This document shows, one piece after another, positions 18,166 through 49,017 of a stretch of DNA of 64,000 nucleotides. Both the position numbers and the translations under genes were made by a program. The stretch is from the human T2T-CHM13v2.0 reference genome, Homo sapiens, in the NCBI GenBank assembly GCA_009914755.4, contig CP086569.2:2240001-2304000 (forward strand), written 5' to 3'. The notes beneath the pieces were generated by a model. It was not told where the DNA came from. It did not search any database and saw nothing but the letters and a program-made list of their open reading frames with translations. Within the stretch, counting starts at the first letter, position 1; each line of letters opens with the position of its first letter.

Positions 18166-20389
18166 ACCATGATCTAAGCACTCCCTTGGAGAACTGATGG
18201 ATGTCAGTGTGCACTGATGGACATAAAACAGGACCACAGAGAAGAGTCACACTTGTAGAAAGAAATGCCCCCCAATCTCTAGCCAAAAGCTCCAAGTGGG
18301 AGTCTGTGTCACTTCCAGTGACAACTCTGCACTGACTCACTGCGTGACCTTGGGCAAGAAGCACTTCTACCTGCCTTGGTTTGTGGACCTGAAACAGGGA
18401 TGTTAGCACCAACCTGGCATCTTCCCAGGACAGTGGCGCAGATCTGGAGGAACACCTCACGGGAAGGTCTTTTGTAGATCACACAGGAGGCTACACAGAC
18501 ATGAGTTACTGTGATTTCCTTTTGTCTAAAGGTTTCTTTCTGGTTCTAGCCTTGTCTATCTGGGGGAAGGAGACTATCTGTGATGGAGATGAGCGTTCTT
18601 TTCCAAGAGCGTTAATTAGCTGTTCACTTTGTGACTTCGTGAGCGCCCTACCATTTGAATTCTGAATCCCTGCGTTTTGTTCTCATTTGGTGATGAGCCT
18701 TTCAGCAGACATGGTAGTGACTATTAAGTAGGCATTTTAATGCAATCGTTCATAGAATCAATATGTAGACGGCTAGTTTCTAATTTATGAGAAGGCATTC
18801 TCTGGGAAATTGAATAAACAGTGCTCGATTGGAATATGGAAATTTTATATAAGAAAAATAATCCGAGAGAGGCTGAGAATGTACAAGCTCTAAGGAATCA
18901 TCAGATGTGAACAGGACTTCAGCTATCATGTTTAGGGTGAGCTTCGTTAGTGGCTCACATCTAGTTTCAGCTGCAACTGTATTTTCATATCGTTCCCAGG
19001 CAAGCCCCGCGAGTGACTGACTCCACGACCCTGTTTCTTCCCAAACCCTCACCTGAGAAACAGGCTTCTTGGATTAAATCTTCCTTTTCCTATTCGACTA
19101 GCCCGGTGGGTTTGTGCTTGGCGTAACTTTGGGCCCCCTGGGTGGGATGTGCTTGCGTGAAGCTCCAGTAGCTTTTCCTCTGTGCCGGGAATAATTTGCA
19201 AAGCGTCCTATTTTGGATTTTCATAATCAAGCTTCTACCCCGTTTCTTTTCAGTTAATTTAATACCTGGAGCACACGCAGTACTTCAAAAATATTGGTCC
19301 GTTCTGGTGTCAGAGAGTCTTTTTGGACTGAGATGTAAAAGTCCTACATTTGGGTATGTGAGCTGGGAGTTGGGGGGCCAGGCTGAGGAGAAGCAACAAA
19401 TTCCAGAGACAAACTTGGCATCTTGGGAGATGTAATACACGCACCCAGCCACAGAGTCCCAGGAGAATGTATTTTAATGGAGAATGTGGAGGGACTTTGC
19501 AAATGTTTTCATTTTCTCAAATCATATCTGTTATCCTGAAAGTGGTGTCTGTTCCCCCTAACGCCCCCCCGCTCCCTCCCCAACCCTTTGCAGACACTGG
19601 CATCTGTGGACATGAGTTAGGTGCTGCAGTACCACTCACTGTGTCAACTACAGTATTAACTACGGAAAACACACACACAGTCACAGTCACACTGACACTC
19701 ACACCCTAACCATCCCAAATCAGACATTTGCAGTCCCACGGGATTTCCAAAGATTCCCCGGACAAGCAATCTATAGATTATCCTGGGACCAGAAAAAAAA
19801 AAGTCCTAGGATTTTTAGTTTCCTTAACCCTCAAGTGGCTGGAAACTGTTAATCAGAGAGGAATGAACATAAATAACACCAAGCCGAGCTCCGTCTGATC
19901 CGAAGTGAGCCCCCAAACAGCTTCTGTCTGCCCTGATTACCAAAGGAAGCCATGCCCACGCATAAATTGGCAGTCTATTTAAACTGGGTGTTCTTCCTCA
20001 CAGTTTTTTTTTTTTCCCAGAGAAATATTCAAAGGCAGGCATTTTTCTGGCTAAGAAGATATTTATTTAAGTCACAGATTGCTTCACCTTCCCAAACTTG
20101 CCCGGCACACTTGGTGTAGGGCAAAGCCTCATCCTTGTCACATCTGTCCCTCTCCCCTCTGGAGCAGGGGCCAGAGGACTTTGGAGGACACCTACTCCCC
20201 CCACCCCCAAGGCTTCGGCTTCCCAGGGGGGGCTTGGCAGTGTGAGAAAGGCAAACCGCCTTCCGACCTGGTTGAAATTTTGTTTCCCATTGCTCCCTAG
20301 AGGTGTCCCTTGGCCGTGGATAACGCTCACTCTGTTCCTAGCCTCGCGCTCACCGTGTTTGTCCATGGAGGTTATAGGGAACTTGAGTG

Positions 20390-21720
20390 CGGGGTCCCCA
20401 CCGCCGGAGCAGAGGGCTAGGGACCCGATAGCGCCTGGTGTGCCATAGCGCATTGGACCCACCCGAGAGCCCGCGTTCTGCTGCACCGGTGGCGGCCACA
20501 GGCGGGAGCGCCTATGCGCCTTGGACCCAAGGCGCCCAGGGGGTGGGTGGGACGGACCTGGAGGGGGTACAGGGGGGGCCTGCGCCCACCTCTCTGCACG
20601 CGCATCTGCCGCTTCCCGTGCCCCATAGGGGAGCCCCGGGCTCCGTGAATCCTCGGGTTCAGTCCCGCGTCCGGATTCCGCGTCCTCCCCGAAGTTGGGG
20701 CTCCCCAACCGTGGCCCCCCAAAGCGCCCGCACGAGCGCACTCACCCGCTCTCCCCGGTGCGTCCCTGAAGGTCAAGGCCAGGAGGCGGTGGAGGTGCAG
20801 GGCGGGCGGTGGGGCCCGGAGTAGGGGGCGCGGGCGCCGAGCTGGGGGGCACCGCGGGACGGCTCAGTCCCCATGGCCCTGGCGCTGGGGGCGCCCCCCG
20901 CCTGGCGACCCCGGGGGTCCGCGGCGCTCAGATGCCGTGGTCACAGTCCACATCGCGGCAGATGTACCAGAGGATCACGTAGAGGATGAGGAGGATGGCG
21001 AAGATGAAGAGGGCCACCAGGATCGCCTTGGTCACCGGCGAGATGAGAGACTGCATGGCCCCAGCGGGGCGCGCGGGAGGGCGGGGGGCGCGCGGGGGCG
21101 CGGGGCGCGGCGCTCACGACCCCCGAGCGCGCCCGGAGCCCCGCGCCGGCCCCGCGCCGCATCCGCAATGCTCCGTGCCCGGGACAGACGCTGCCTGGGT
21201 GGCTGCTCGGCGGCGGCGGTGGTGGCAGTGGTGGCTGCTCGGAGGCCGGCGCGCTCGGGTGCAGGCGGCTGCGCGCGGGGCTCCCACCGCCCGGGTCCCC
21301 CCAGCTGCTGGCGCTCACCGGGCCCGGCGGCCGCTGGGCTGGGCTGGGGGCACGGGGGGCCCTGGGGGCGGCCGGGAGGAGGGGGCGGCGGCCATGGGGG
21401 AGAGCTGGAGGAAGGCGGCGCGCCGGGCAAGTCCCCCGAAAACTTGGGGCGGAGGCGGCGCGGTGACAGGTGGAAACGCCAGCCCCGCGGGCAGCAGCGC
21501 GCAGCCGTCCACTGGCGGCGGGGGGCGCGGGGGCGCGGGAGGGAGGCGCGGGGGCGAGCGCGCGGGGAGGGGCTGCGGCACTGGGCGGGGGGCCTCCCTT
21601 TGCAGATGGGGAGGGTCGGGGGAGAGCAGGCGTCCCCGACTGCGCGCCTTTCCATCACCTCTCCCACCTCTCTGCTTTTCCCGGCCCCCTCTCTCCAGCG
21701 CAGCGGTGGATATCTCTCTC
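20390..21720. promoter_or_regulatory. CpG island (orphan, ~1.3 kb, >75% GC, CpG not depleted)
   Basis: dense CpG from cggggtccccaccgccggagcag through ..cgcagcggtggatatctctctcgtcc; many cgcg/gcgc runs. Confidence 0.85.
20928..21056 (-). CDS. candidate 42-aa single-pass transmembrane micropeptide (MQSLISPVTKAILVALFIFAILLILYVILWYICRDVDCDHGI)
   Basis: the ATG is the reverse complement of cat at 21054-21056 and the TGA is the reverse complement of tca at 20928-20930 (hand-translated codon by codon). The ORF sits in a ~55% GC pocket inside ~80% GC flanks and encodes a clean 22-residue hydrophobic helix with basic/acidic flanks. Initiation context is gggGCCATGC. Not in the supplied ORF track because it is under 60 aa. 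Confidence 0.35.
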   Translation of the reverse strand: MQSLISPVTKAILVALFIFAILLILYVILWYICRDVDCDHGI

Positions 21721-23206
21721 GTCCAGGTCTTGCATCTCACCCCTTCTTTGGGAGTCCCCTTCCTTTCCTCTTTTCCTCACTCTCACCCTGCACCCCGGTA
21801 TGGGTGAGCTGCGATATTCTCATCAAAGAATGAAGGTGCTCATGGAGAGAAGCTGCCCCTTCTCTCTTTCTCTCTCTCTCTCTGTGTCTCTTGTACAGGG
21901 AAGGGGGTTTCAAGTTGCAACTAACTCATTGCTGATACCAAGCAGGATGGGCCCAGGCAGGAAAAAAGTACACACCCTTGCCCAGAGTCACAGCTTCTAT
22001 AAGGGGAAGGGGGAGACTGGGTTCTGTGATGAAGGGGTGAGGCAGACGTCTTGGTGTGAGACTCAGTCCCGTGATAAAGGGGCGATGCACACAGACGCCT
22101 TAGTGTAAGGATCCAGGTTTCTGCCCTCGCATCACAGAAAGCCCTCCACCCCACGTTTGTCCCTTACTCTCTGGGGCTTAGCCCTGGGGAATGGAGAGAC
22201 AGGCATGGTGGCACGTGGGTGCACACACATTTTTCCTGAAGTGTGAGCTGTGTTTAGGGCTGATGTCTGGTGGAGACACGAACAGGTCAGGGCACAGCAC
22301 AGAAGGCCGAAGGAGCCCAAATTCTTGGGAAAGGAGGTAGTTCCTCCCTAGCTGGGCATCCTGAATACTCTCTTTAAGGGAGGGAGGGAGCTGGGGCTGT
22401 TGGACAGGGGCATAGGGCTTGCACCAGGAATCCATGACATGGTAAGAACAGGGACCACCCAGTTTCCCAGCAAATACACAATTCAGGCCTTTCATGCCCT
22501 GATTTTTGTCTCCGCTCCCTGTGGCCCCTAACACCGGTGAGCAGGAGCTGTTCCACGATGCCTGGTAGAAGTCTTCGCCTGCCTGCAGTGACACACTACT
22601 GAGGGAAAATTTTATACCTGCATGCAGTGACCCCAGCACCGATGCCCCATGGTTCTGGGAGACAGAAAGAGCTTCAGGGTTGGAGAGCCTTTGTCTGAGA
22701 GCCTGGCTCCCGAGGGTAAGGCATTCCTGACCTTCAGAAACAGGAACAAAGGAGAAGATAGGACCTGACCCAGGTAAAAATAGCCTCCCCTGCTATGGTC
22801 TAGGATGGATTTGCAGCTGAGGAAGGATGCCAGGAAAATGGACCATGATATCAGAGGGCTGTGTGGGTCGGGGAAAAAGGAATTCATCAAGCACTAAAGT
22901 GGCGATGCAATCTCTCCTCTGCACCCTTCTACCCGGTGTTTCCATTCCAGAGACAGCTCTTCCCCCAGGATGACACAGGTGGGAGGGAGGAGACCCTCTT
23001 CCTGCTGACGGCAAAGAGAAGAGCCCACCTCAGGGTCTCCCAGCAGATAGCCGGGTGGCTGGCGTGGCTTTCCCTTGAATCTGCAGTCTGTGAAAGGTTT
23101 TCGAGCAGAAGTGGGGAGCAAGGGAACAGTTTTGTAGATGGCATGACCCATGCCAGCAAGGCTTGCAGCCAGGCAGCTTCTTCTTGCCACTTTAGAGAGG
23201 AAATCA

Positions 23207-23262
23207 ATTGTGTGTGTGTGCGCGCGCGCGTACCCGTGTGTGTGGGTGGGTGTGTGTGCACG
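23207..23262. repeat. (GT)n(GC)n(GT)n alternating purine-pyrimidine tract
   Basis: gtgtgtgtgtgcgcgcgcgcgtacccgtgtgtgtgggtgggtgtgtgtgcacgtg. Confidence 0.9.
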
Positions 23263-23624
23263 TGCCCACACAGTGCATGAAAAGGTCCTCGCTCAGCGAT
23301 AGTGTGTACATTTCCAGGGCAGCAGCTTCTAACTTTCAATTGAACCTGCGTTTCCAGCCTCTAGCTGTTCATCGGCTGAGAGAAGATGGATAATTGAATT
23401 TCTATACTTCCACTTCTCTGCACATGAAGAGTTGGTATTCCTCAGGGGAATTCCTCAGGGGAAGAAACACCAAAGTTTCAGACAGTTTGTAAACTTACTT
23501 TTGTCTGTACAATTTATCAGACACCCACAGTGAAGCCAAGAGCAAAAAGAACATCCAGATGGAAAGGTATAAGGCAGGTGTCAGAGCCAATACACCACGA
23601 TTCCTTTCTCACAAATAGAATTTG

Positions 23625-23931
<307 letters not shown>

Positions 23932-23999
23932 TGATTTTTAATGTAGGAAGACACAGAACAGAATAGACATCCCAGGAAAAAAAAAAAACATGGATTTAC

Positions 24000-25322
<1,323 letters not shown>

Positions 25323-25323
25323 C

Positions 25324-25520
25324 TAGTGGCTGAGTGCAGTGGCTCATGCCGGTAATCCCAGCACTTTGGGAGGCCGAGGCAGGTGAATTGTTTGAGGTCA
25401 GGAGTTCGAGACCAGCCTGACCAACATGGTGAATCCAAGAGGTGGAGGTTGCAGTGAGCCAAGATTGCGCCACTGCACTCCAGCCTGGGCAACAGAGCGA
25501 GAGTCTGTCTCAAAAATAAA
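25324..25520 (+). mobile_element. Alu with internal deletion
   Basis: tggctgagtgcagtggctcatgccggtaatcccagcactttgggaggccgagg...ggtgaatccaagaggtggaggttgcagtgagccaagattgcgccactgcactccagcctgggcaacagagcgagagtctgtctcaaaaataaaaataaaaataaa. Confidence 0.85.
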
Positions 25521-25806
25521 AATAAAAATAAAATGCTGTTTCTGCCACTTAATCCTTCAGTCATGTACATATCCTTCATTTTCCTCATCCCTGAGTGACT
25601 TCTTGAACTAAATATGGTGGGAAGGCAATGTTTCAGGGCAGCCACTCTCCCTAGAGTGAATTATTTTAGAATCAGAGAAGTGGTTGCTTCCTAAATCACA
25701 ATGTGTGAACTACTAAACGCTCTCTCCATATGTGGCTTGTGGTTGTTTGGTCCTGAGATACAGAGCTTCTAACGTGGACGGTAATCTATTGATTTACTAT
25801 CAGTGA

Positions 25807-26188
<382 letters not shown>

Positions 26189-26724
26189 TAGAAACTCATG
26201 GACAAGATGAACCATGAGCCCTGGGGCAGGCAGATGAGGACAGGAAAAGTTCCCCATTGACTAATTCATTCCTGGGTGATTAGAAGTATTGGAAGGATTT
26301 TATCACTTCTGATTGGCTCAGTATCTGTGTGAGTAAGAGCTGCTCATGGGCTGACCAGAATCTGCTCCAGGTGGACAGCTATCTCTGGGTCTGTTTACTG
26401 AAGAAACGTGTGTACTTTCTTGAATGTGCTACAACTCTTCAGGGTATCCCTGGAGAACTTTGGGATAGGTCCAGCATTCCATGTAGAAGATGGAACATCT
26501 TTCCCAAGAGTTTTTGGATCGTGTCTATCTCTGGCTTGACTCAATTGCCTAAAGTAATTGAATAATAAGTGCTTTTCCTCTGCTTCACTTTGAATGCTGA
26601 AACATGCGTTTTGTTTTTTAACCAGAGGAAACTTGCCCAAATTCTTGACAATCCTGGGCTCCTTTGGAGGATTGAAAATCTTGGGTCCTGGCTCTGTCTC
26701 CTGGATCTGCACGTTGGGTCATCA

Positions 26725-27143
<419 letters not shown>

Positions 27144-27297
27144 TCAAGATTTGGAAAAAATCTTGGTCAAAATCAGGATTTTGACTACTGTTTCTCCATG
27201 CCCTGCTCACATGAGAAACCCTCTCTCCCTCCAAGGCTCCAACTCTGTAATCACTTCTCATTCCCAAATCTGTGGGTCAAATCAAGGTCAAAAATCA

Positions 27298-27732
<435 letters not shown>

Positions 27733-28209
27733 CTAATGTGTTATTATTTTTAGTGAGGTTAAGTCTACAGGTTAACTGAGGCATAAACAGACTTGCTATA
27801 TTTGCTAATTTAGGCAAAACACAAAGCCAATGATAAAAACCGATAAAACCCAATGGACGAAAACGGATGTTTCCGTAATAGCAGGAGTCGCTTAGAGGTT
27901 CAAAAGCATTTTACCTTCTTAGTTCATGGTTTCTGCTTTTCTTTAGTCTGCCAGTGTTGTTGTCTTTGGGATATGTCTTTTTACTATTTGCTCAGATTAT
28001 TTCAAATATGATAGTGGGTAGTGTTGTGTGAAATAGCTAAGATTTTATGTAGATGCTATTAATAAATTTAAACTAACATTTTAGGTGTCCAGCATTTTTT
28101 ATCTATGAACAGAGCAGCTAACACTAGAAAGAGTTCTCTTTACAGGGAAGCAGATGTAACCCACCTGCTTTTTAGAATGGGGTGGTTTTACAAGGAAACA
28201 TCTCTCTAG

Positions 28210-28507
<298 letters not shown>

Positions 28508-43736: not shown

Positions 43737-44395
43737 TTTGTCCATCAATCCATCTATTCACTCATCCATCCACTCATCCATCTATTCTTCTTCTACCCAC
43801 CCATCTATCCAGCTATCTATCCGTCTGTCCACTTATCTATCCATCCATCCATTCGTCCATCCATCCATCCATCCATCCACCCACTCATCTATCTCTACCC
43901 ATCCATCCAGCCAGCCAGTAATCTGTCCACCCATCTATCCATCCATCCACCCACCCACCCACCCATCTCTCTCTACCCCTCCAGCCACCCAGTAATCTGT
44001 CCATCCACCTATCCTTCCAACCATCCATCCACCCACCCATCCACCCACTTATCTATCTGTCCATCTATCCATAGATCAATCCGTCTATCCCCCCTTTCAT
44101 CCATCCATTTATTCATCTGTCCATTTATCCATTCCTCCACCCACCCATCCATTCATCCATTTATTCATCTATGTATCCATCCATTCATCCATCCACCCAA
44201 CTATCTATCCATCCAATCATCCACTCATCTTTCCATCCATCCACCCATTTATTCATTCATCCAGCCATCTATCTCTTTATCCATCCTTCCAGCAAGTGAT
44301 CCATCCATTCACGCATCCAGATGGCTGTCTGTCCATTCATTCATCCATCCACCACTTCCTACCCCCAGACCCATCTATCCACCCATCATCCACTG
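43737..44395. repeat. degenerate compound tetranucleotide repeat (ATCC/ACCC/ATCT)n, ~660 bp
   Basis: ccatccatccatccatccacccactcatctatc... throughout; produces a spurious 266-aa HPSIHPSI ORF (43596-44396 +). Confidence 0.95.
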
Positions 44396-45042: not shown

Positions 45043-46064
45043 CTATCCTGTAGGAGACTTCCTGCTTCGAACTGGCTGCTGGGACTCCAGCCATCACGTC
45101 ATTATCCCAGGCAGGTTCAGGATGAAGCAAAGACCAAAAAAAAAAAAAAAAGAAAGAAAAAAGAAAAATGATTCTGCCTCCAGGAGTGGAGTGCATAGTT
45201 AGACTGCTGCATTCCTCAAACCCCTGAGGTGGGCCCCAGGGTGCGGGGCCAGCCCCTCTGGCCTTGCCTGTGTCTGATCCAGGGGCACAGGTGGCCTGGG
45301 GAGAGACGGAGTCACCCGCAGGCCTGAGACAGCACAAGACCAGTGTTACCGAAGGGCCCCTGACGCAGCCTGCTGGGGTGAGTCGCCAAGGACCAGGACT
45401 CAGCCAGGCGACCCAGATAGGGGTCTTACCCCCAACCCCAAACCACGACCACAAGTCCTCACTCCCAACCCTGTCTCTGAGCTTGCGGCAGAACGTCCTT
45501 GGTCCCGCGCAGAGCGGGTATCCGCAGTGTGTCTCAAAGCCCCCCACCCCCGCCATCTTTCACCACTGAGCGCCCCCAGCTCGGACGCTCCAGAAAGGAC
45601 CAGGGGCCGTGGCTGCCTGTCAAGGCCTACGCCTTTCTAAGCAGGGAGGGGATTGCACTTTGCACCCCTTGGGGATCGCCCTGAGCGCCCCGTGAGCAGC
45701 TGGAAGGGGGCCCCATAGTTTTCCGAGCAGAGGAGCAGGAAGAGTTTCATTTCCTCCCCGTTGGGGCTGCCTGGGGGGGGTGCCTGTTAGGAACAGAGAG
45801 GAGACAGCAAGGGCGGGCGCGGAGAGGCCCACACCTCTCCAAGAAGGGCAGCGGTTTCTCTTGGCTCCAGGTAGGGGCCGCCCTGGGGCGTGCATTTAAG
45901 GGGCTGTAGAGAGGGAGGGACCCGCACTTTCCCGAGAATGTTGGGGGTTGCACTTTGCTCTAGTTGGCGGCATCCTGGCGACGGGCTTGTGGGCGGGGGG
46001 CACTCACAGTTTCCTGAGAAGGGAAGGAGGGCGTCCCGTGGTCCCCTCGGCGCGGCCCGAGCCA

Positions 46065-46165
46065 CCTCCGCCCGCCCCCTCCTCTGTCCCCTCCCCGGGC
46101 CCGGCGTTCCCTCCCCTTCCGTGCGCCAGTGGAGGCCGGGGTGGGGCGGGGCGGGGCAGGCGCAG
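46065..46165 (+). ncRNA. MIR6089: pre-miRNA-like hairpin; 3' arm carries the string I recall as mature hsa-miR-6089
   Basis: ggaggccggggtggggcggggcgg at 46131-46154, preceded by an imperfectly complementary C-rich arm (ccgcccgccccctcctctgtcccctccccgggcccggcgttccctcccc, ~46065-46120). Mature sequence quoted from memory, not checked. Confidence 0.6.
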
Positions 46166-46297
46166 CCTGGGCTGAGTTTGCAGGGCTGCTCCCCTCACCC
46201 AACCCCTTCGAGTCCTCCGCGGGCTCCGCCCCACCCGGCCCGTGGGGGAGGTTCCGTCCCGCCGCCTTCGCCCGCGCGCTGCACTCGCGGACGATCT

Positions 46298-46371
46298 CTG
46301 CTCGCCTTGGGCGCGGGGCCGTGCTGGCGCTGCGGCTCCTCGGCCTGCTCCGCCGTCTGGTGGCCGCCCCG
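46298..46371 (+). pseudogene. CD99P1: CD99-like exon 1 (signal peptide) with start codon lost; donor G|gtgagc retained
   Basis: translates SARLGRGAVLALRLLGLLRRLVAAP versus CD99 MARGAALALLLFGLLGVLVAAP (from memory); ATG position reads tct; exon ends ..ccgccccg|gtgagcgag. Confidence 0.7.
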
Positions 46372-47139
46372 GTGAGCGAGCGGCGGGATCCGGGTGGGAG
46401 GACGCGGGGGGTGGCGCGGGCTGGGCCTGGGGATCCGCCTGGGGATGTGGGGTGCAGGGGCGGGGCGCCCCGCGGGGACACCCGGCCCCTCTTCCGTGCC
46501 CGGCGGGACGCGCTGTGCCCACGGGGACCCAGGTCCGGAGGAGGCGCCCACTTTCTCCCCAGCGCTCTTCCTGGGGCCAGGTGGGAGCCGTTTCAGAGGA
46601 AAAAGCCAGCGTTTCTTTCGTAAACCAAAAAGTATCTGGGACAAGTCCCAATCCTTTTGAGTTGATTCGGCGAAGATCAGGAAGGAGCCCGGGAGACGGG
46701 TCTATGCCTTTCTCCAAAGATACTATTGAGAGCTTCGGTATTTAAAGGGGGAAAGCACGCTGGAGGGGAAAGAAGGAGGAAGGCTCATTTTACCGAATTC
46801 ACCTGTTGCAAAAGAAAAGCAGCAGGTAGAATAGTCAATTATGTATTTGTCTTGCGCTCACTAAATTGGCACTTTACTAAGATAAGGTCAACAGAGAGTT
46901 ATTGCACTGTCTGCTTGGGAACAGAAGGAAAGACAGCTTCCTGCCTGACTCAGCTTCCAGCTTTATTATTATTATTATTAATTATTTTGGCAGAGTGAAC
47001 TGGGGTTCCAAGTTTTAATTTTCCTTCTACAGTTTGCAGAATCGCAAACTCTTAAATTTAGGGGAACCTGGGGAAGAGGTGGCATCCGATTCCCCCCCAA
47101 CCCTGGTGACGTTCTTATGGATCTTATGGATACTGCAGT

Positions 47140-47705
47140 CTCTCTTCTCTTTCTGTCTCTCCTCTCTTCTCTTTCCTTTCTCTCTCTCCTCTTCTCTCCC
47201 TCTTCCTCTCTCTCTCTTCTCTCCTGTTCCCTCTCTCTCTTCTCTCTCTTCTTTCTCTCGCTTTTCTCTCTCCTCACTCTCCTCTCTCCCTCTCTCTCCC
47301 CTCTTTCCTCTTTCTCTCGCCTCTCTCTCACCTCTCTCCTCTCTCCCCTTTTCTCTCTCTCCCCCTCTTCTCTCTCTCCCCCTCTTCTTTCTCTCCTTTT
47401 CTCTCTCGTCTCTCTCTCCTCTCCTCTCTCTCCTCTCTCTCTCCTCTCCTCTCTCTCCTCTTTTCTCTCTCCCATCTCTCTCTCTCCTGTCTCCTTCTCT
47501 CTTGTCTCTCGCCTTTCTCCTCTCTCTATCTCCTCACTCTCTCCTTCTCTCTCCTCTCTCTCTTGTCTCTCTCCCGCCTCTCTCATCTATCTCCTCTCTC
47601 TCTCCCCCCTCTCCTCCCTCTCCTCTTTCTCTCCTCTATCTCCTCTCTCCCCCTCTTTCTCTCTCCTCTCTCTCTCTTACTCCCTCTTTTTCTGTCTCAT
47701 GCTCA
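47140..47705. repeat. ~560-bp polypyrimidine (CT)n/(CTCTCC)n-rich tract (polypurine on - strand); H-DNA/triplex-prone
   Basis: uninterrupted C/T-only sequence ctctcttctctttctgtctctcctctcttctctttcc...; the homologous position in later units (e.g. 51718-51760, 55338-55400, 63215-63262) is only ~40 bp. Confidence 0.95.
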
Positions 47706-48799: not shown

Positions 48800-48965
48800 A
48801 GTGAACAGTCTCTGTGCAAATTGATATTTCAGTTTCTTTTCTCATCGCTATGGAAATTGATTTTTCATTTTCTGGTCGCTGTGGAAATTGATTTTTCATT
48901 TTCTTTTCTGGTCGCTATCAAAATTGATTTTTCATTTTCTGGTCGCTATGGAAATTGATTTTTCA
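48800..48965. repeat. 35-bp minisatellite (gtcgctatggaaattgatttttcattttc(ttttc)tg), 5 copies, 50-200 bp upstream of a splice acceptor
   Basis: aaattgat(a/t)tttca(g/t)tttc recurs five times at 48823-48958; the homologous site has 2 copies in unit 2 (52583-52640) and 1 in units 3 and 4. Confidence 0.9.
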
Positions 48966-49017
48966 TTTTCTTGACTACTAGGTACTGATGATTGCAACTC
49001 TCATGTTTTACAAACAG

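What the first reader, a model, noticed from the sequence alone, without database searches (positions are those of the whole stretch)
20928..21056. Unannotated-looking 42-aa single-pass transmembrane micropeptide ORF embedded in an orphan CpG island
On the minus strand a 129-nt ORF encodes MQSLISPVTKAILVALFIFAILLILYVILWYICRDVDCDHGI. It has a short polar N-tail, a clean 22-residue hydrophobic helix, and a charged Cys-containing C-tail (R-D-V-D-C-D-H). This is the architecture of phospholamban/sarcolipin/myoregulin-class regulatory micropeptides. It sits in a ~55% GC pocket inside ~80% GC flanks. In such DNA, chance ORFs are Ala/Gly/Pro/Arg-rich, and every long ORF in the supplied six-frame track for this island looks like that. 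A helix built from ATC/CTC/TTC/GTG/TAC codons therefore argues for coding constraint. The ATG has a usable context (gggGCCATGC). The rc-AATAAA at ~20063-20068 would give a single-exon transcript starting from the same island. I do not recognise the peptide as any known protein.
Basis: partly seen in the sequence, partly recalled or inferred. Interest (0 to 1): 0.75.

Follow-up and report, generated by a model that had tools for sequence, protein, structure and literature searches.

The report
Deeply conserved unannotated 42-residue membrane microprotein gene
The 129-base reading frame is a real protein-coding gene for a 42-residue single-helix membrane protein, identical from humans to birds, that I could not find as a 42-residue product in the RefSeq or UniProt content of the databases searched.

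Summary
The ORF is at window 20928-21056 (-), exactly as described. It is a protein-coding gene, not a chance ORF.

- **Conservation:** The same ATG, stop and 42 codons occur in 11 distinct orthologous DNA sequences from mammals, birds and fish. The peptide is 100% identical between human, cat, a chicken-like bird and swallow, and differs at 1-2 residues in fish.
- **Coding signature:** Variable sites fall 5/0/32 on codon positions 1/2/3, and dN/dS is 0-0.13. Outside mammals, similarity ends at the ORF boundaries.
- **Structure:** The peptide has a 22-residue hydrophobic helix (AlphaFold helix 7-40) and a short acidic Cys-containing tail, so it has the layout of a tail-anchored protein.
- **Transcript:** A consensus 5' splice site after the stop codon is conserved in all seven human-type loci outside rodents.
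- **Annotation status:** No 42-residue RefSeq or UniProt entry turned up. Public models fuse residues 1-30 to unrelated tails. SMIM36 is fully annotated in the same database.
- **Relatives and location:** A faster-evolving 41-residue paralogue exists. Similarity to SMIM36 is weak, and there is no sequence membership in the phospholamban/sarcolipin class. Fish synteny with ZBED1-DHRSX and a Celera chrX model favour human PAR1.
- **Function:** Untested. I infer an intramembrane subunit or regulator.

The parts
20928..21056 (-). Complete CDS: 42 codons plus TGA, encoding MQSLISPVTKAILVALFIFAILLILYVILWYICRDVDCDHGI
   Evidence: The same start and stop occur in 11 distinct orthologous DNA sequences. 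dN/dS is 0-0.13. Variable sites by codon position are 10/1/35.
20961..21026 (-). Codons 11-32: the 22-residue transmembrane helix AILVALFIFAILLILYVILWYI
   Evidence: Mean hydropathy of residues 11-29 is 3.34. AlphaFold2 predicts a helix over residues 7-40, with pLDDT 96-97 over residues 11-30. The helix is invariant in human, cat, two birds and two fish.
20928..20960 (-). Codons 33-42 plus the stop: the acidic Cys-containing tail CRDVDCDHGI*
   Evidence: The tail is kept through synonymous changes from fish to human, for example TGC CGC/AGA GAT/GAC GTG GAC TGT/TGC GAC/GAT CAC/CAT GGC/GGG ATC/ATT TGA. Cys33 is conserved in 16 of the 17 aligned family members.
20736..20776 (-). Conserved 3' end of the CDS exon and its 5' splice site. 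The exon ends at 20746 and the intron starts with GTGAGT at 20745-20740.
   Evidence: The block TTGACCTTCAGG...GAGAGCGG|GTGAGTGCGC is shared by human and two other mammals. The sequence between the stop and this block is rich in indels. A GTRAGT donor preceded by related sequence lies 31-264 nt after the stop in birds and fish.
20400..21650 (.). CpG island holding the CDS exon and presumably its promoter and 5' UTR
   Evidence: 76.7% GC and CpG observed/expected 0.84; composition profile. The transcription start site was not determined.
21160..21162 (-). Upstream out-of-frame ATG opening a 73-codon ORF that overlaps the CDS. Further upstream ATGs lie at 21393-21395 and 21653-21655.
   Evidence: In the titi monkey an indel puts this upstream ORF in frame with the CDS (P0017), so the stretch behaves as UTR rather than coding sequence. 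Whether it lies inside the transcript depends on the unknown start site.
20062..20067 (-). AATAAA, a candidate intronic or alternative poly-A signal for an unspliced short transcript
   Evidence: One mammal shows weak similarity over 19924-20083. Use of this signal was not tested.
3520..3848 (-). Candidate downstream non-coding exon. It is preceded by a long polypyrimidine tract and an AG at 3850-3849.
   Evidence: The tail of raccoon dog RefSeq model XP_055193554.1 (P0067) aligns here. The human sequence has a stop codon in that frame, so it does not look coding. The exon is inferred, not shown.
2982..3110 (-). Exon used by the human Celera model hCG1981875 (EAW98694.1)
   Evidence: P0061 residues 157-199 match at 100% identity. 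The rest of that model translates intron sequence at 20773-20349, so the model is an artefact.

Best explanation
**Shown.** Window 20928-21056 (-) is the complete coding sequence of a vertebrate-wide protein-coding gene. Its product is a 42-residue protein with three parts:
- a 10-residue polar N-tail (MQSLISPVTK);
- one very hydrophobic 22-residue helix;
- a 10-residue acidic tail (CRDVDCDHGI).

The whole CDS sits in one exon inside a CpG island. That exon ends, after the stop codon, at a conserved 5' splice site. The mRNA is therefore spliced and looks like an lncRNA, with the small ORF in the CDS-bearing exon.

**Inferred mechanism.**
- The peptide is too short to engage the co-translational signal-recognition route before translation ends. 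Its only hydrophobic segment lies 10 residues from the C-terminus.
- It should therefore be inserted post-translationally as a tail-anchored protein. The N-tail would face the cytosol, and the acidic Cys33/Cys38 tail would face the lumen or the cell exterior.
- Every residue of the helix has been frozen for several hundred million years. A plain membrane anchor would tolerate hydrophobic swaps.
- The helix therefore most likely packs against a specific partner inside the bilayer. It would act as an obligate small subunit or regulator of a conserved membrane machine, in the manner of sarcolipin, OST4 or the FXYD/KCNE accessory subunits.
- The partner is unknown.
For: **Coding**
- The ORF is intact with the same start and stop in 11 distinct DNA sequences from 19 loci.
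- Human versus swallow: identical peptide with 14 nucleotide differences.
- Human versus fish-like locus L018: 25 nucleotide differences (22 synonymous) but only one amino-acid change.
- Variable sites by codon position are 5/0/32 across seven lineages.
- In birds and fish, similarity stops within 0-16 nt of the ORF ends.
- GC3 is 0.91 against GC2 of 0.30.
- An independent annotation pipeline called exactly this 42-residue CDS in the Iriomote cat (CAK7313715.1).

**Membrane helix**
- Hydropathy of 3.34 is the top score of 373 ORFs.
- AlphaFold2 predicts a helix over residues 7-40 with mean pLDDT 84.

**Spliced transcript**
- The splice donor after the stop is conserved.
- The raccoon dog RefSeq model uses it.

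**A family rather than a one-off**
- A 41-residue paralogue group keeps the same architecture and has a donor just after its stop.
Against: - No transcript, ribosome-footprint or mass-spectrometry data could be consulted, so expression and translation in human are inferred from conservation.
- An out-of-frame ATG at 21160-21162 would compete with the start codon if the transcription start lies upstream of it.
- In human the stop lies 182 nt before the exon junction. By the 50-55 nt rule (my knowledge) this predicts sensitivity to nonsense-mediated decay, unlike fish at 31-67 nt.
- Topology, insertion route and the existence of a partner are all inference.
- No known family gives a significant match that would point to a partner.
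Confidence: 0.8

Rival explanations
1. The ORF is only the first coding exon of a longer protein. An internal donor (ctcTG|GTACAT at 20968/20967, or TAC|GTGATC) would join the N-terminal helix to downstream exons as a signal anchor, for example for DHRSX or ZBED1.
For: - More than ten public gene models share residues 1-25 or 1-30 and then continue.
- They include trout RefSeq XP_021453291.2 (DHRSX-like), croaker ZBED1 KAE8278733.1 and human Celera EAW98694.1.
- In croaker the ORF lies about 8 kb upstream of ZBED1 and 12 kb upstream of a DHRSX exon that has an acceptor but no start codon.
Against: - The tails of these models are unrelated to one another. In human and raccoon dog they are translated intron or UTR sequence.
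- Codons 31-42 and the stop are conserved with a synonymous-only pattern from fish to human. Intron sequence would not show this.
- Both internal GT sites depart from the donor consensus. A consensus donor is conserved after the stop.
- In croaker, the TAC|GTG donor joined to the DHRSX exon would be out of frame (direct reading).
Confidence: 0.05
2. The ORF is a peptide-dependent regulatory upstream ORF, or the first cistron of a bicistronic transcript. Its translation would control a downstream gene on the same strand (ZBED1 or DHRSX), and the peptide itself would have no function of its own in the membrane.
For: - The ORF lies on the same strand and immediately upstream of ZBED1-DHRSX in a fish chromosome.
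- The CDS exon ends at a conserved splice donor shortly after the stop, as a 5' leader exon would.
- From my own knowledge, some regulatory upstream ORFs are conserved at the amino-acid level.
Against: - No ZBED1 or DHRSX exon lies within the 21 kb downstream in this window.
- From my own knowledge, a 22-residue maximally hydrophobic helix with an invariant sequence is not what known stalling peptides look like.
- A paralogue family with the same architecture exists at other loci.
- The raccoon dog model's downstream exon is non-coding in human.
Confidence: 0.08
3. The conservation is non-coding (an enhancer, RNA structure or CpG-island element) and the open frame is accidental.
For: The region does hold conserved non-coding blocks, for example 14233-14414 and the block before the splice donor.
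Against: - Variation has a three-base periodicity of 5/0/32.
- dN/dS is 0-0.13, with synonymous sites near saturation against fish.
- The conserved block begins and ends within a few bases of the start and stop codons in birds and fish.
- Rfam gives no match.
Confidence: 0.01

Closest known systems
SMIM36 (small integral membrane protein 36, human chr17; sequence taken from the supplement of PMC6886504)
   Same: - Both have an N-terminal polar stretch ending in PVT, followed by one ultra-conserved helix.
- Both then have a juxtamembrane Y-x-C-R-x-x-D. The alignment is ISPVTKAILVALFIFAILLILYVILWYICRDVD against [35 protein letters not shown], 40% identity over 35 residues.
- UniRef labels the newt model that carries this peptide's N-terminus 'Small integral membrane protein 36'.
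- SMIM36 was itself found late, by PhyloCSF (PMC6886504).
   Different: - SMIM36 is 87-151 residues in the annotated orthologues listed, with a conserved cytosolic tail (KEYAPE...KRSTxV) that is absent here.
- The similarity is weak. Pairwise E is 0.001, hhalign probability is 45%, and 111 of 5000 architecture-preserving shuffles score as well.
- The two genes lie at different loci.
- Paralogy is possible but not established.
Sarcolipin, phospholamban, myoregulin and DWORF (SERCA-regulating micropeptides)
   Same: - Similar size (31-52 residues).
- One helix near the C-terminus, the tail-anchored type of layout.
- Encoded by small ORFs in lncRNA-like transcripts.
- High conservation of the helix. 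This is the best functional analogy.
   Different: - No Pfam match to the phospholamban or sarcolipin families, even at E up to 10.
- Smith-Waterman scores are within the shuffle range for phospholamban, myoregulin and DWORF, and marginal for sarcolipin at 31 of 2000 shuffles.
- The helix contains no Asn, so it lacks the Asn-containing motif I recall as typical of the SERCA inhibitors.
- The acidic CxxxxCxH tail has no counterpart in these peptides.
The 41-residue paralogue group (consensus MQALVSPVTKAIFVALFLFAILLILYVILWYICRDLDNDxI), which has no name in any catalogue searched
   Same: - 56-83% identical to the window peptide.
- Same length class.
- Same invariant or near-invariant residues: M1, S6, A11, L25, L29, Y31, W30 and C33.
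- A splice donor 5-42 nt after the stop.
   Different: - It lacks Cys38 and His40.
- It evolves much faster.
- It is found in a manatee RefSeq model ('extensin-like', XP_012415458.1) and in fish-like contigs.
- It is not present in this window, and whether humans retain it is unknown.

Membership tests
Protein-coding gene (evolutionary signature criteria of the PhyloCSF type) | The reading frame, start and stop are preserved across distant species. | tested here: met
   The 42 codons have the same ATG and stop in human, two other mammals, rodents, two birds and two fish.
Protein-coding gene (evolutionary signature criteria of the PhyloCSF type) | An excess of synonymous over non-synonymous change, with three-base periodicity. 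| tested here: met
   dN/dS is 0-0.13. Variable sites by codon position are 10/1/35 over all human-type sequences and 5/0/32 over seven lineages.
Protein-coding gene (evolutionary signature criteria of the PhyloCSF type) | Evidence of transcription and translation in human. | not testable with these tools
   No CAGE, RNA-seq, Ribo-seq or proteomics data were available. The only indirect evidence comes from gene models in cat and raccoon dog.
Tail-anchored single-pass membrane proteins | A single hydrophobic helix within about 30 residues of the C-terminus and no N-terminal signal peptide. | tested here: met
   The helix spans residues 11-32, the C-tail is 10 residues, and the whole protein is 42 residues.
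Tail-anchored single-pass membrane proteins | Post-translational insertion with the N-terminus in the cytosol. | not testable with these tools
   Inferred from length and charge distribution only: K10 sits on the N side, and R34 plus three Asp sit on the C side.
Phospholamban/sarcolipin/myoregulin class of SERCA regulators | A sequence signature of the family (the Pfam phospholamban or sarcolipin models). | tested here: not met
   Neither family matches at E up to 10. The alignments are not better than architecture-preserving shuffles, apart from a marginal score against sarcolipin.
Phospholamban/sarcolipin/myoregulin class of SERCA regulators | The Asn-containing intramembrane motif I recall as typical of the inhibitors (from memory, not checked against an alignment here). 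| tested here: not met
   Direct reading of the sequence: the helix AILVALFIFAILLILYVILWYI has no Asn.
Phospholamban/sarcolipin/myoregulin class of SERCA regulators | Binding to SERCA and regulation of its activity. | not testable with these tools
   This needs co-immunoprecipitation and Ca2+-ATPase assays.
SMIM36 family | Significant sequence or profile similarity over the N-terminal and helix region. | tested here: inconclusive
   BLASTP gives 40% identity over 35 residues with E 0.001. hhalign gives probability 45% and E 2e-4. 111 of 5000 segment-wise shuffles score as well.
SMIM36 family | A conserved C-terminal extension of about 50 residues (DPSKEYAPE...KRSTxV). | tested here: not met
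   The protein ends 10 residues after the helix, and the stop is conserved in all orthologues.

The most novel reading that the evidence does not exclude
This is a still-unannotated human protein-coding gene, probably in pseudoautosomal region 1 and so present on both X and Y. It would found an uncatalogued vertebrate family of 41-42-residue tail-anchored microproteins: the human-type gene, a faster-evolving paralogue, and perhaps SMIM36 as a distant third member. Its invariant helix would be an essential intramembrane subunit or regulator of a conserved membrane machine.
Probability: 0.45. Interest if true: 0.8.

Novelty: new member of a known kind. Interest (0 to 1): 0.7.

Why it matters
- **Rarity.** GENCODE wrote in 2024 that few conserved proteins remain to be found by evolutionary signature, and that microproteins are the remaining gap (PMC11701607). 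A 42-residue protein identical from human to birds, yet found in the databases searched only as mis-spliced models, would be one of those rare remaining cases.
- **Why it was missed.** My inference is that the ORF is short, sits in about 80% GC sequence that is often missing from assemblies and genome alignments, and lies in a transcript that looks non-coding.
- **Dosage.** If the gene is in PAR1, it is present on both X and Y and would escape X inactivation. That would make it relevant to sex-chromosome aneuploidy.
- **Function.** The degree of constraint on the helix predicts a specific and probably important membrane partner, which is directly testable.
- **Database clean-up.** The result flags a set of wrong public protein models, such as 'protein VASP homolog', 'extensin-like', and N-termini of ZBED1, DHRSX-like and TRPC5 models.

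Tried and rejected
- **Rfam:** no family reaches its gathering score over the whole window.
- **Pfam:** only sub-threshold hits to membrane segments (ASFV p17, Orf78, PspC), which I treat as hydrophobic noise.
- **Literature by sequence:** a full-text search for the peptide found nothing.
- **Supplement searches:** the peptide is absent from the held supplementary tables of Mudge 2019, Mackowiak 2015 and Sandmann 2023. The 2026 Nature microprotein paper has no supplements held, and Bazzini 2014 is not held.
- **Literature by name:** searches for a PAR small integral membrane protein, for ZBED1/DHRSX with micropeptide, for SMIM46-50, and for hCG1981875 gave nothing relevant.
- **Neighbouring genes:** The exact human position could therefore not be fixed.
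- **Trpc5 linkage in vole:** considered and down-weighted, because that scaffold is 14 small contigs within 35 kb of N.
- **DHRSX exon 1:** homology of the peptide to the human DHRSX N-terminus was considered and not supported.
- **Off-target tool:** the promoter and terminator scan uses bacterial models and is irrelevant here.
- **Not run:** a structure-library search, because a single helix is uninformative.
Full report

Yes. Window 20928-21056 on the minus strand translates to MQSLISPVTKAILVALFIFAILLILYVILWYICRDVDCDHGI followed by TGA. An in-frame stop lies 20 codons upstream.

The ORF is 57% GC, inside flanks of 85% and 78% GC. The surrounding CpG island (20400-21650) is 76.7% GC with CpG observed/expected 0.84. 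By codon position the ORF GC is 0.51/0.30/0.91, so only the third position follows the island's composition.

Its best 19-residue hydropathy window scores 3.34, the highest of all 373 ATG-initiated ORFs of at least 30 residues in the 64-kb window.

**2. Is it coding?**

An exact-sequence look-up finds this 42-residue peptide on 368 contigs. It is named only 'hypothetical protein', for example CAK7313715.1 from the Iriomote cat. Homology searches return 18-51 relatives.

I fetched 24 loci. In every locus of the human type the ATG, the 42 codons and the stop are in the same places.

| Comparison with the window | Peptide | Nucleotide differences |
|---|---|---|
| Mammal L001 | identical | 8 synonymous |
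| Cat-like L002 | identical | 5 synonymous |
| Chicken-like bird L003-L010 | identical | 10 synonymous |
| Swallow L017 | identical | 14 |
| Fish-like L018 | 1 residue differs | 25 (22 synonymous) |
| Croaker L024 | 2 residues differ | not computed |

- dN/dS is 0-0.13 for every pair where it could be computed.
- Across 11 distinct DNA sequences, variable sites fall 10/1/35 on codon positions 1/2/3. Across human, two mammals, two birds and two fish they fall 5/0/32.
- Outside mammals, nucleotide similarity is confined to the ORF plus 0-16 flanking bases.
- Upstream, indels shift the frame between primates. The titi monkey model P0017 fuses an ORF that is out of frame in this window. That stretch therefore behaves as UTR.

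**3. Anatomy of the product**

- The peptide has a polar N-tail (residues 1-10, ending in K10), a helix (11-32) and a tail CRDVDCDHGI (33-42).
- AlphaFold2, run on an 11-sequence alignment, gives one helix over residues 7-40. Mean pLDDT is 84, and 96-97 over residues 11-30.
- A 42-residue protein finishes translation while still largely inside the ribosome tunnel, and its helix is 10 residues from the C-terminus. By established knowledge of tail-anchored proteins, I infer post-translational insertion.
- The charge distribution is +1 on the N side and net -2 from side chains on the C side. From it I infer a cytosolic N-terminus and a lumenal or extracellular acidic tail.
- Cys33 is conserved in 16 of 17 aligned family members. 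Cys38 and His40 are specific to the human-type group.
- These points about insertion and topology are inferences, not results.

**4. Gene structure**

A different structure is better supported.

- In human and two other mammals, the sequence after the stop is indel-rich. It then becomes a conserved block ending in a consensus 5' splice site, GAGAGCGG|GTGAGTGCGC. The exon ends at 20746.
- A GTRAGT donor preceded by related sequence (GACCTTCAG, GGGTGACCCG) lies 146 and 264 nt after the stop in the two birds. It lies 31 and 67 nt after the stop in the two fish.
- The 41-residue paralogues have a donor 5-42 nt after their stop.
- The raccoon dog RefSeq model XP_055193554.1 runs from this exon, through that donor, into sequence orthologous to window 3812-3520.
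- Upstream of that stretch lie a long polypyrimidine tract and an AG at 3850-3849, so I take the candidate exon as 3848-3520. In human this downstream sequence contains a stop in the model's frame, so it looks like untranslated exon.
- The gene is therefore most likely a spliced, lncRNA-like transcript with its whole CDS in the exon that holds the CpG island. The start site and the downstream exons remain inferred.

Two caveats apply.
- An out-of-frame ATG at 21160-21162 overlaps the CDS and would compete with its start codon if it is transcribed.
- In human the stop lies 182 nt before the junction. By the usual 50-55 nt rule this predicts sensitivity to nonsense-mediated decay.

**5. Why public gene models mislead**

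More than ten deposited proteins share residues 1-25 or 1-30 and then diverge into mutually unrelated tails. One search identifies several:

| Accession | Species | Deposited name |
|---|---|---|
| EAW98694.1 | human (Celera) | hCG1981875 |
| XP_055193554.1 | raccoon dog | protein VASP homolog |
| KAE8278733.1 | croaker | ZBED1 |
| XP_021453291.2 | rainbow trout | DHRSX-like |
| KAH0499870.1 | prairie vole | TRPC5 |
| CAM9219572.1 | reindeer | unnamed protein product |

- Several bird and newt models show the same pattern.
- The models use weak internal GT sites (ctcTG|GTACAT, TAC|GTGATC) to escape the stop.
- The human and raccoon dog tails are translated intron or UTR sequence from this window.
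- Codons 31-42 and the stop are conserved with synonymous change only.
- I therefore read these models as artefacts of pipelines that disfavour very short CDSs, not as evidence for a longer protein.

**6. Where is it?**

- The window is human or a very close relative. It carries Alu-derived ORFs. The Celera human model, on a 155.4-Mb contig the size of chrX, matches it at 91-100% identity.
- In the croaker chromosome the order on one strand is ORF, then ZBED1 (BED finger and hAT dimerisation domains), then a DHRSX-type short-chain dehydrogenase, all within 20 kb.
- ZBED1 and DHRSX are human PAR1 genes (my knowledge).
- Against that, a prairie vole scaffold places the ORF among Trpc5 exons. Trpc5 is at Xq23 in human. 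That scaffold is 14 small contigs within 35 kb of N, so I give it little weight.
- No ZBED1, DHRSX, CD99 or TRPC5 exon lies in the window. The exact position is unresolved.

**7. Comparison with known families**

- **Pfam:** nothing above noise.
- **SERCA micropeptides:** the class resembles this peptide in size, layout and gene type. Sequence membership fails. There is no family hit, the alignments fall within the shuffle range, and the helix has no Asn.
- **SMIM36:** this is the nearest named protein. It shares ..PVT.., the helix, and Y-x-C-R-x-x-D, with 40% identity over 35 residues. Its N-terminus and helix are also frozen from shark to human.
- **Strength of the SMIM36 link:** support is weak. 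hhalign probability is 45%, and 111 of 5000 architecture-preserving shuffles score as well. SMIM36 also carries a conserved tail of about 50 residues that is absent here. Paralogy is possible but unproven.
- **Unnamed paralogue:** a 41-residue group (consensus MQALVSPVTKAIFVALFLFAILLILYVILWYICRDLDNDxI) is clearly related and evolves faster. It occurs in a manatee model and in fish-like contigs, so the duplication is old.

**8. Is it already known?**

The same protein database that lacks a named entry for this peptide holds SMIM36 with RefSeq or UniRef names in well over 50 vertebrate species, including entries from species whose RefSeq annotations I believe are recent.

For the 42-residue peptide and its paralogues, three searches return no RefSeq or UniProt record of the short product. 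They return only raw-assembly ORF calls, two 'hypothetical protein' GenBank entries and the mis-spliced models.

The peptide is also absent from the held supplementary tables of the PhyloCSF gene-discovery paper, the conserved-sORF catalogue and the 7,264-ORF Ribo-seq catalogue analysis, and from full-text search.

I could not query current GENCODE or RefSeq tracks directly, so a very recent annotation cannot be excluded.

**9. Verdict**

- **Observation:** confirmed.
- **Interpretation:** supported in its core, with two corrections. The transcript is spliced rather than single-exon. The likeness to sarcolipin and phospholamban is an analogy, not family membership.
- **Best explanation:** this is a genuine, ultra-conserved tail-anchored membrane microprotein gene. 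I infer that the invariant helix packs against a specific partner in the membrane.
- **Novelty:** new member of a known kind, namely conserved transmembrane microproteins encoded in lncRNA-like transcripts.
- **Interest:** 0.7.

Noticed in passing
window 45900-46750, with 47139-47700 alongside: A second GC-rich, CpG-island-like block lies about 25 kb upstream of the ORF on the minus strand. It holds only Ala/Gly/Pro/Arg-rich ORFs, and a 560-bp (TC)n-rich tract sits next to it. It may be another promoter.
   Followed up: no
window 14233-14414: A non-coding block about 75% identical to two other mammals, in the presumed intron. It contains CCAAT and TAAT-core motifs (GCCAATTTAATCAAT) and looks like an enhancer-type conserved element.
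   Followed up: partly
window 18344-18882 and 10702-11426: Further blocks conserved with the mammalian loci L001 and L002 (66-84% identity), downstream of the CDS exon. They could be exons or conserved non-coding elements.
   Followed up: no
L015, L016, L019-L022; proteins P0024-P0028, P0053, P0066, P0197-P0208: A 41-residue paralogue family has the same architecture and a splice donor just after its stop. It evolves much faster and is also absent from RefSeq and UniProt as a short protein. Whether humans retain it is unknown.
   Followed up: partly
L024 (Larimichthys crocea chromosome CM011673.2), 10001-28261: The ORF, ZBED1 and a DHRSX-type dehydrogenase lie on one strand within 20 kb. The DHRSX exon at about 21800-21915 has an acceptor but no start codon, so its first exon lies further upstream, possibly near the microprotein exon.
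   Followed up: partly
L023 (Microtus ochrogaster scaffold JAATJU010028212.1): The vole orthologue sits in a 2.4-kb contig scaffolded among Trpc5 exons, and the deposited TRPC5 protein KAH0499870.1 starts with the microprotein. This is either a rodent relocation or a scaffolding error.
   Followed up: partly
L011-L014 (P0020, P0021): These orthologues, possibly rodent (the source species is not given), carry 6 amino-acid changes and very GC-rich codons. Birds and fish are identical or nearly identical to human, so evolution was accelerated in this lineage, possibly by GC-biased processes.
   Followed up: no
window 43741-44353, 6790-8063, 48808-48972: A (TCCA)n-derived minisatellite, AT-rich tandem arrays with periods of 33-140 bp, and a 31/67-bp tandem repeat. 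They are ordinary repeats and unrelated to the finding.
   Followed up: no
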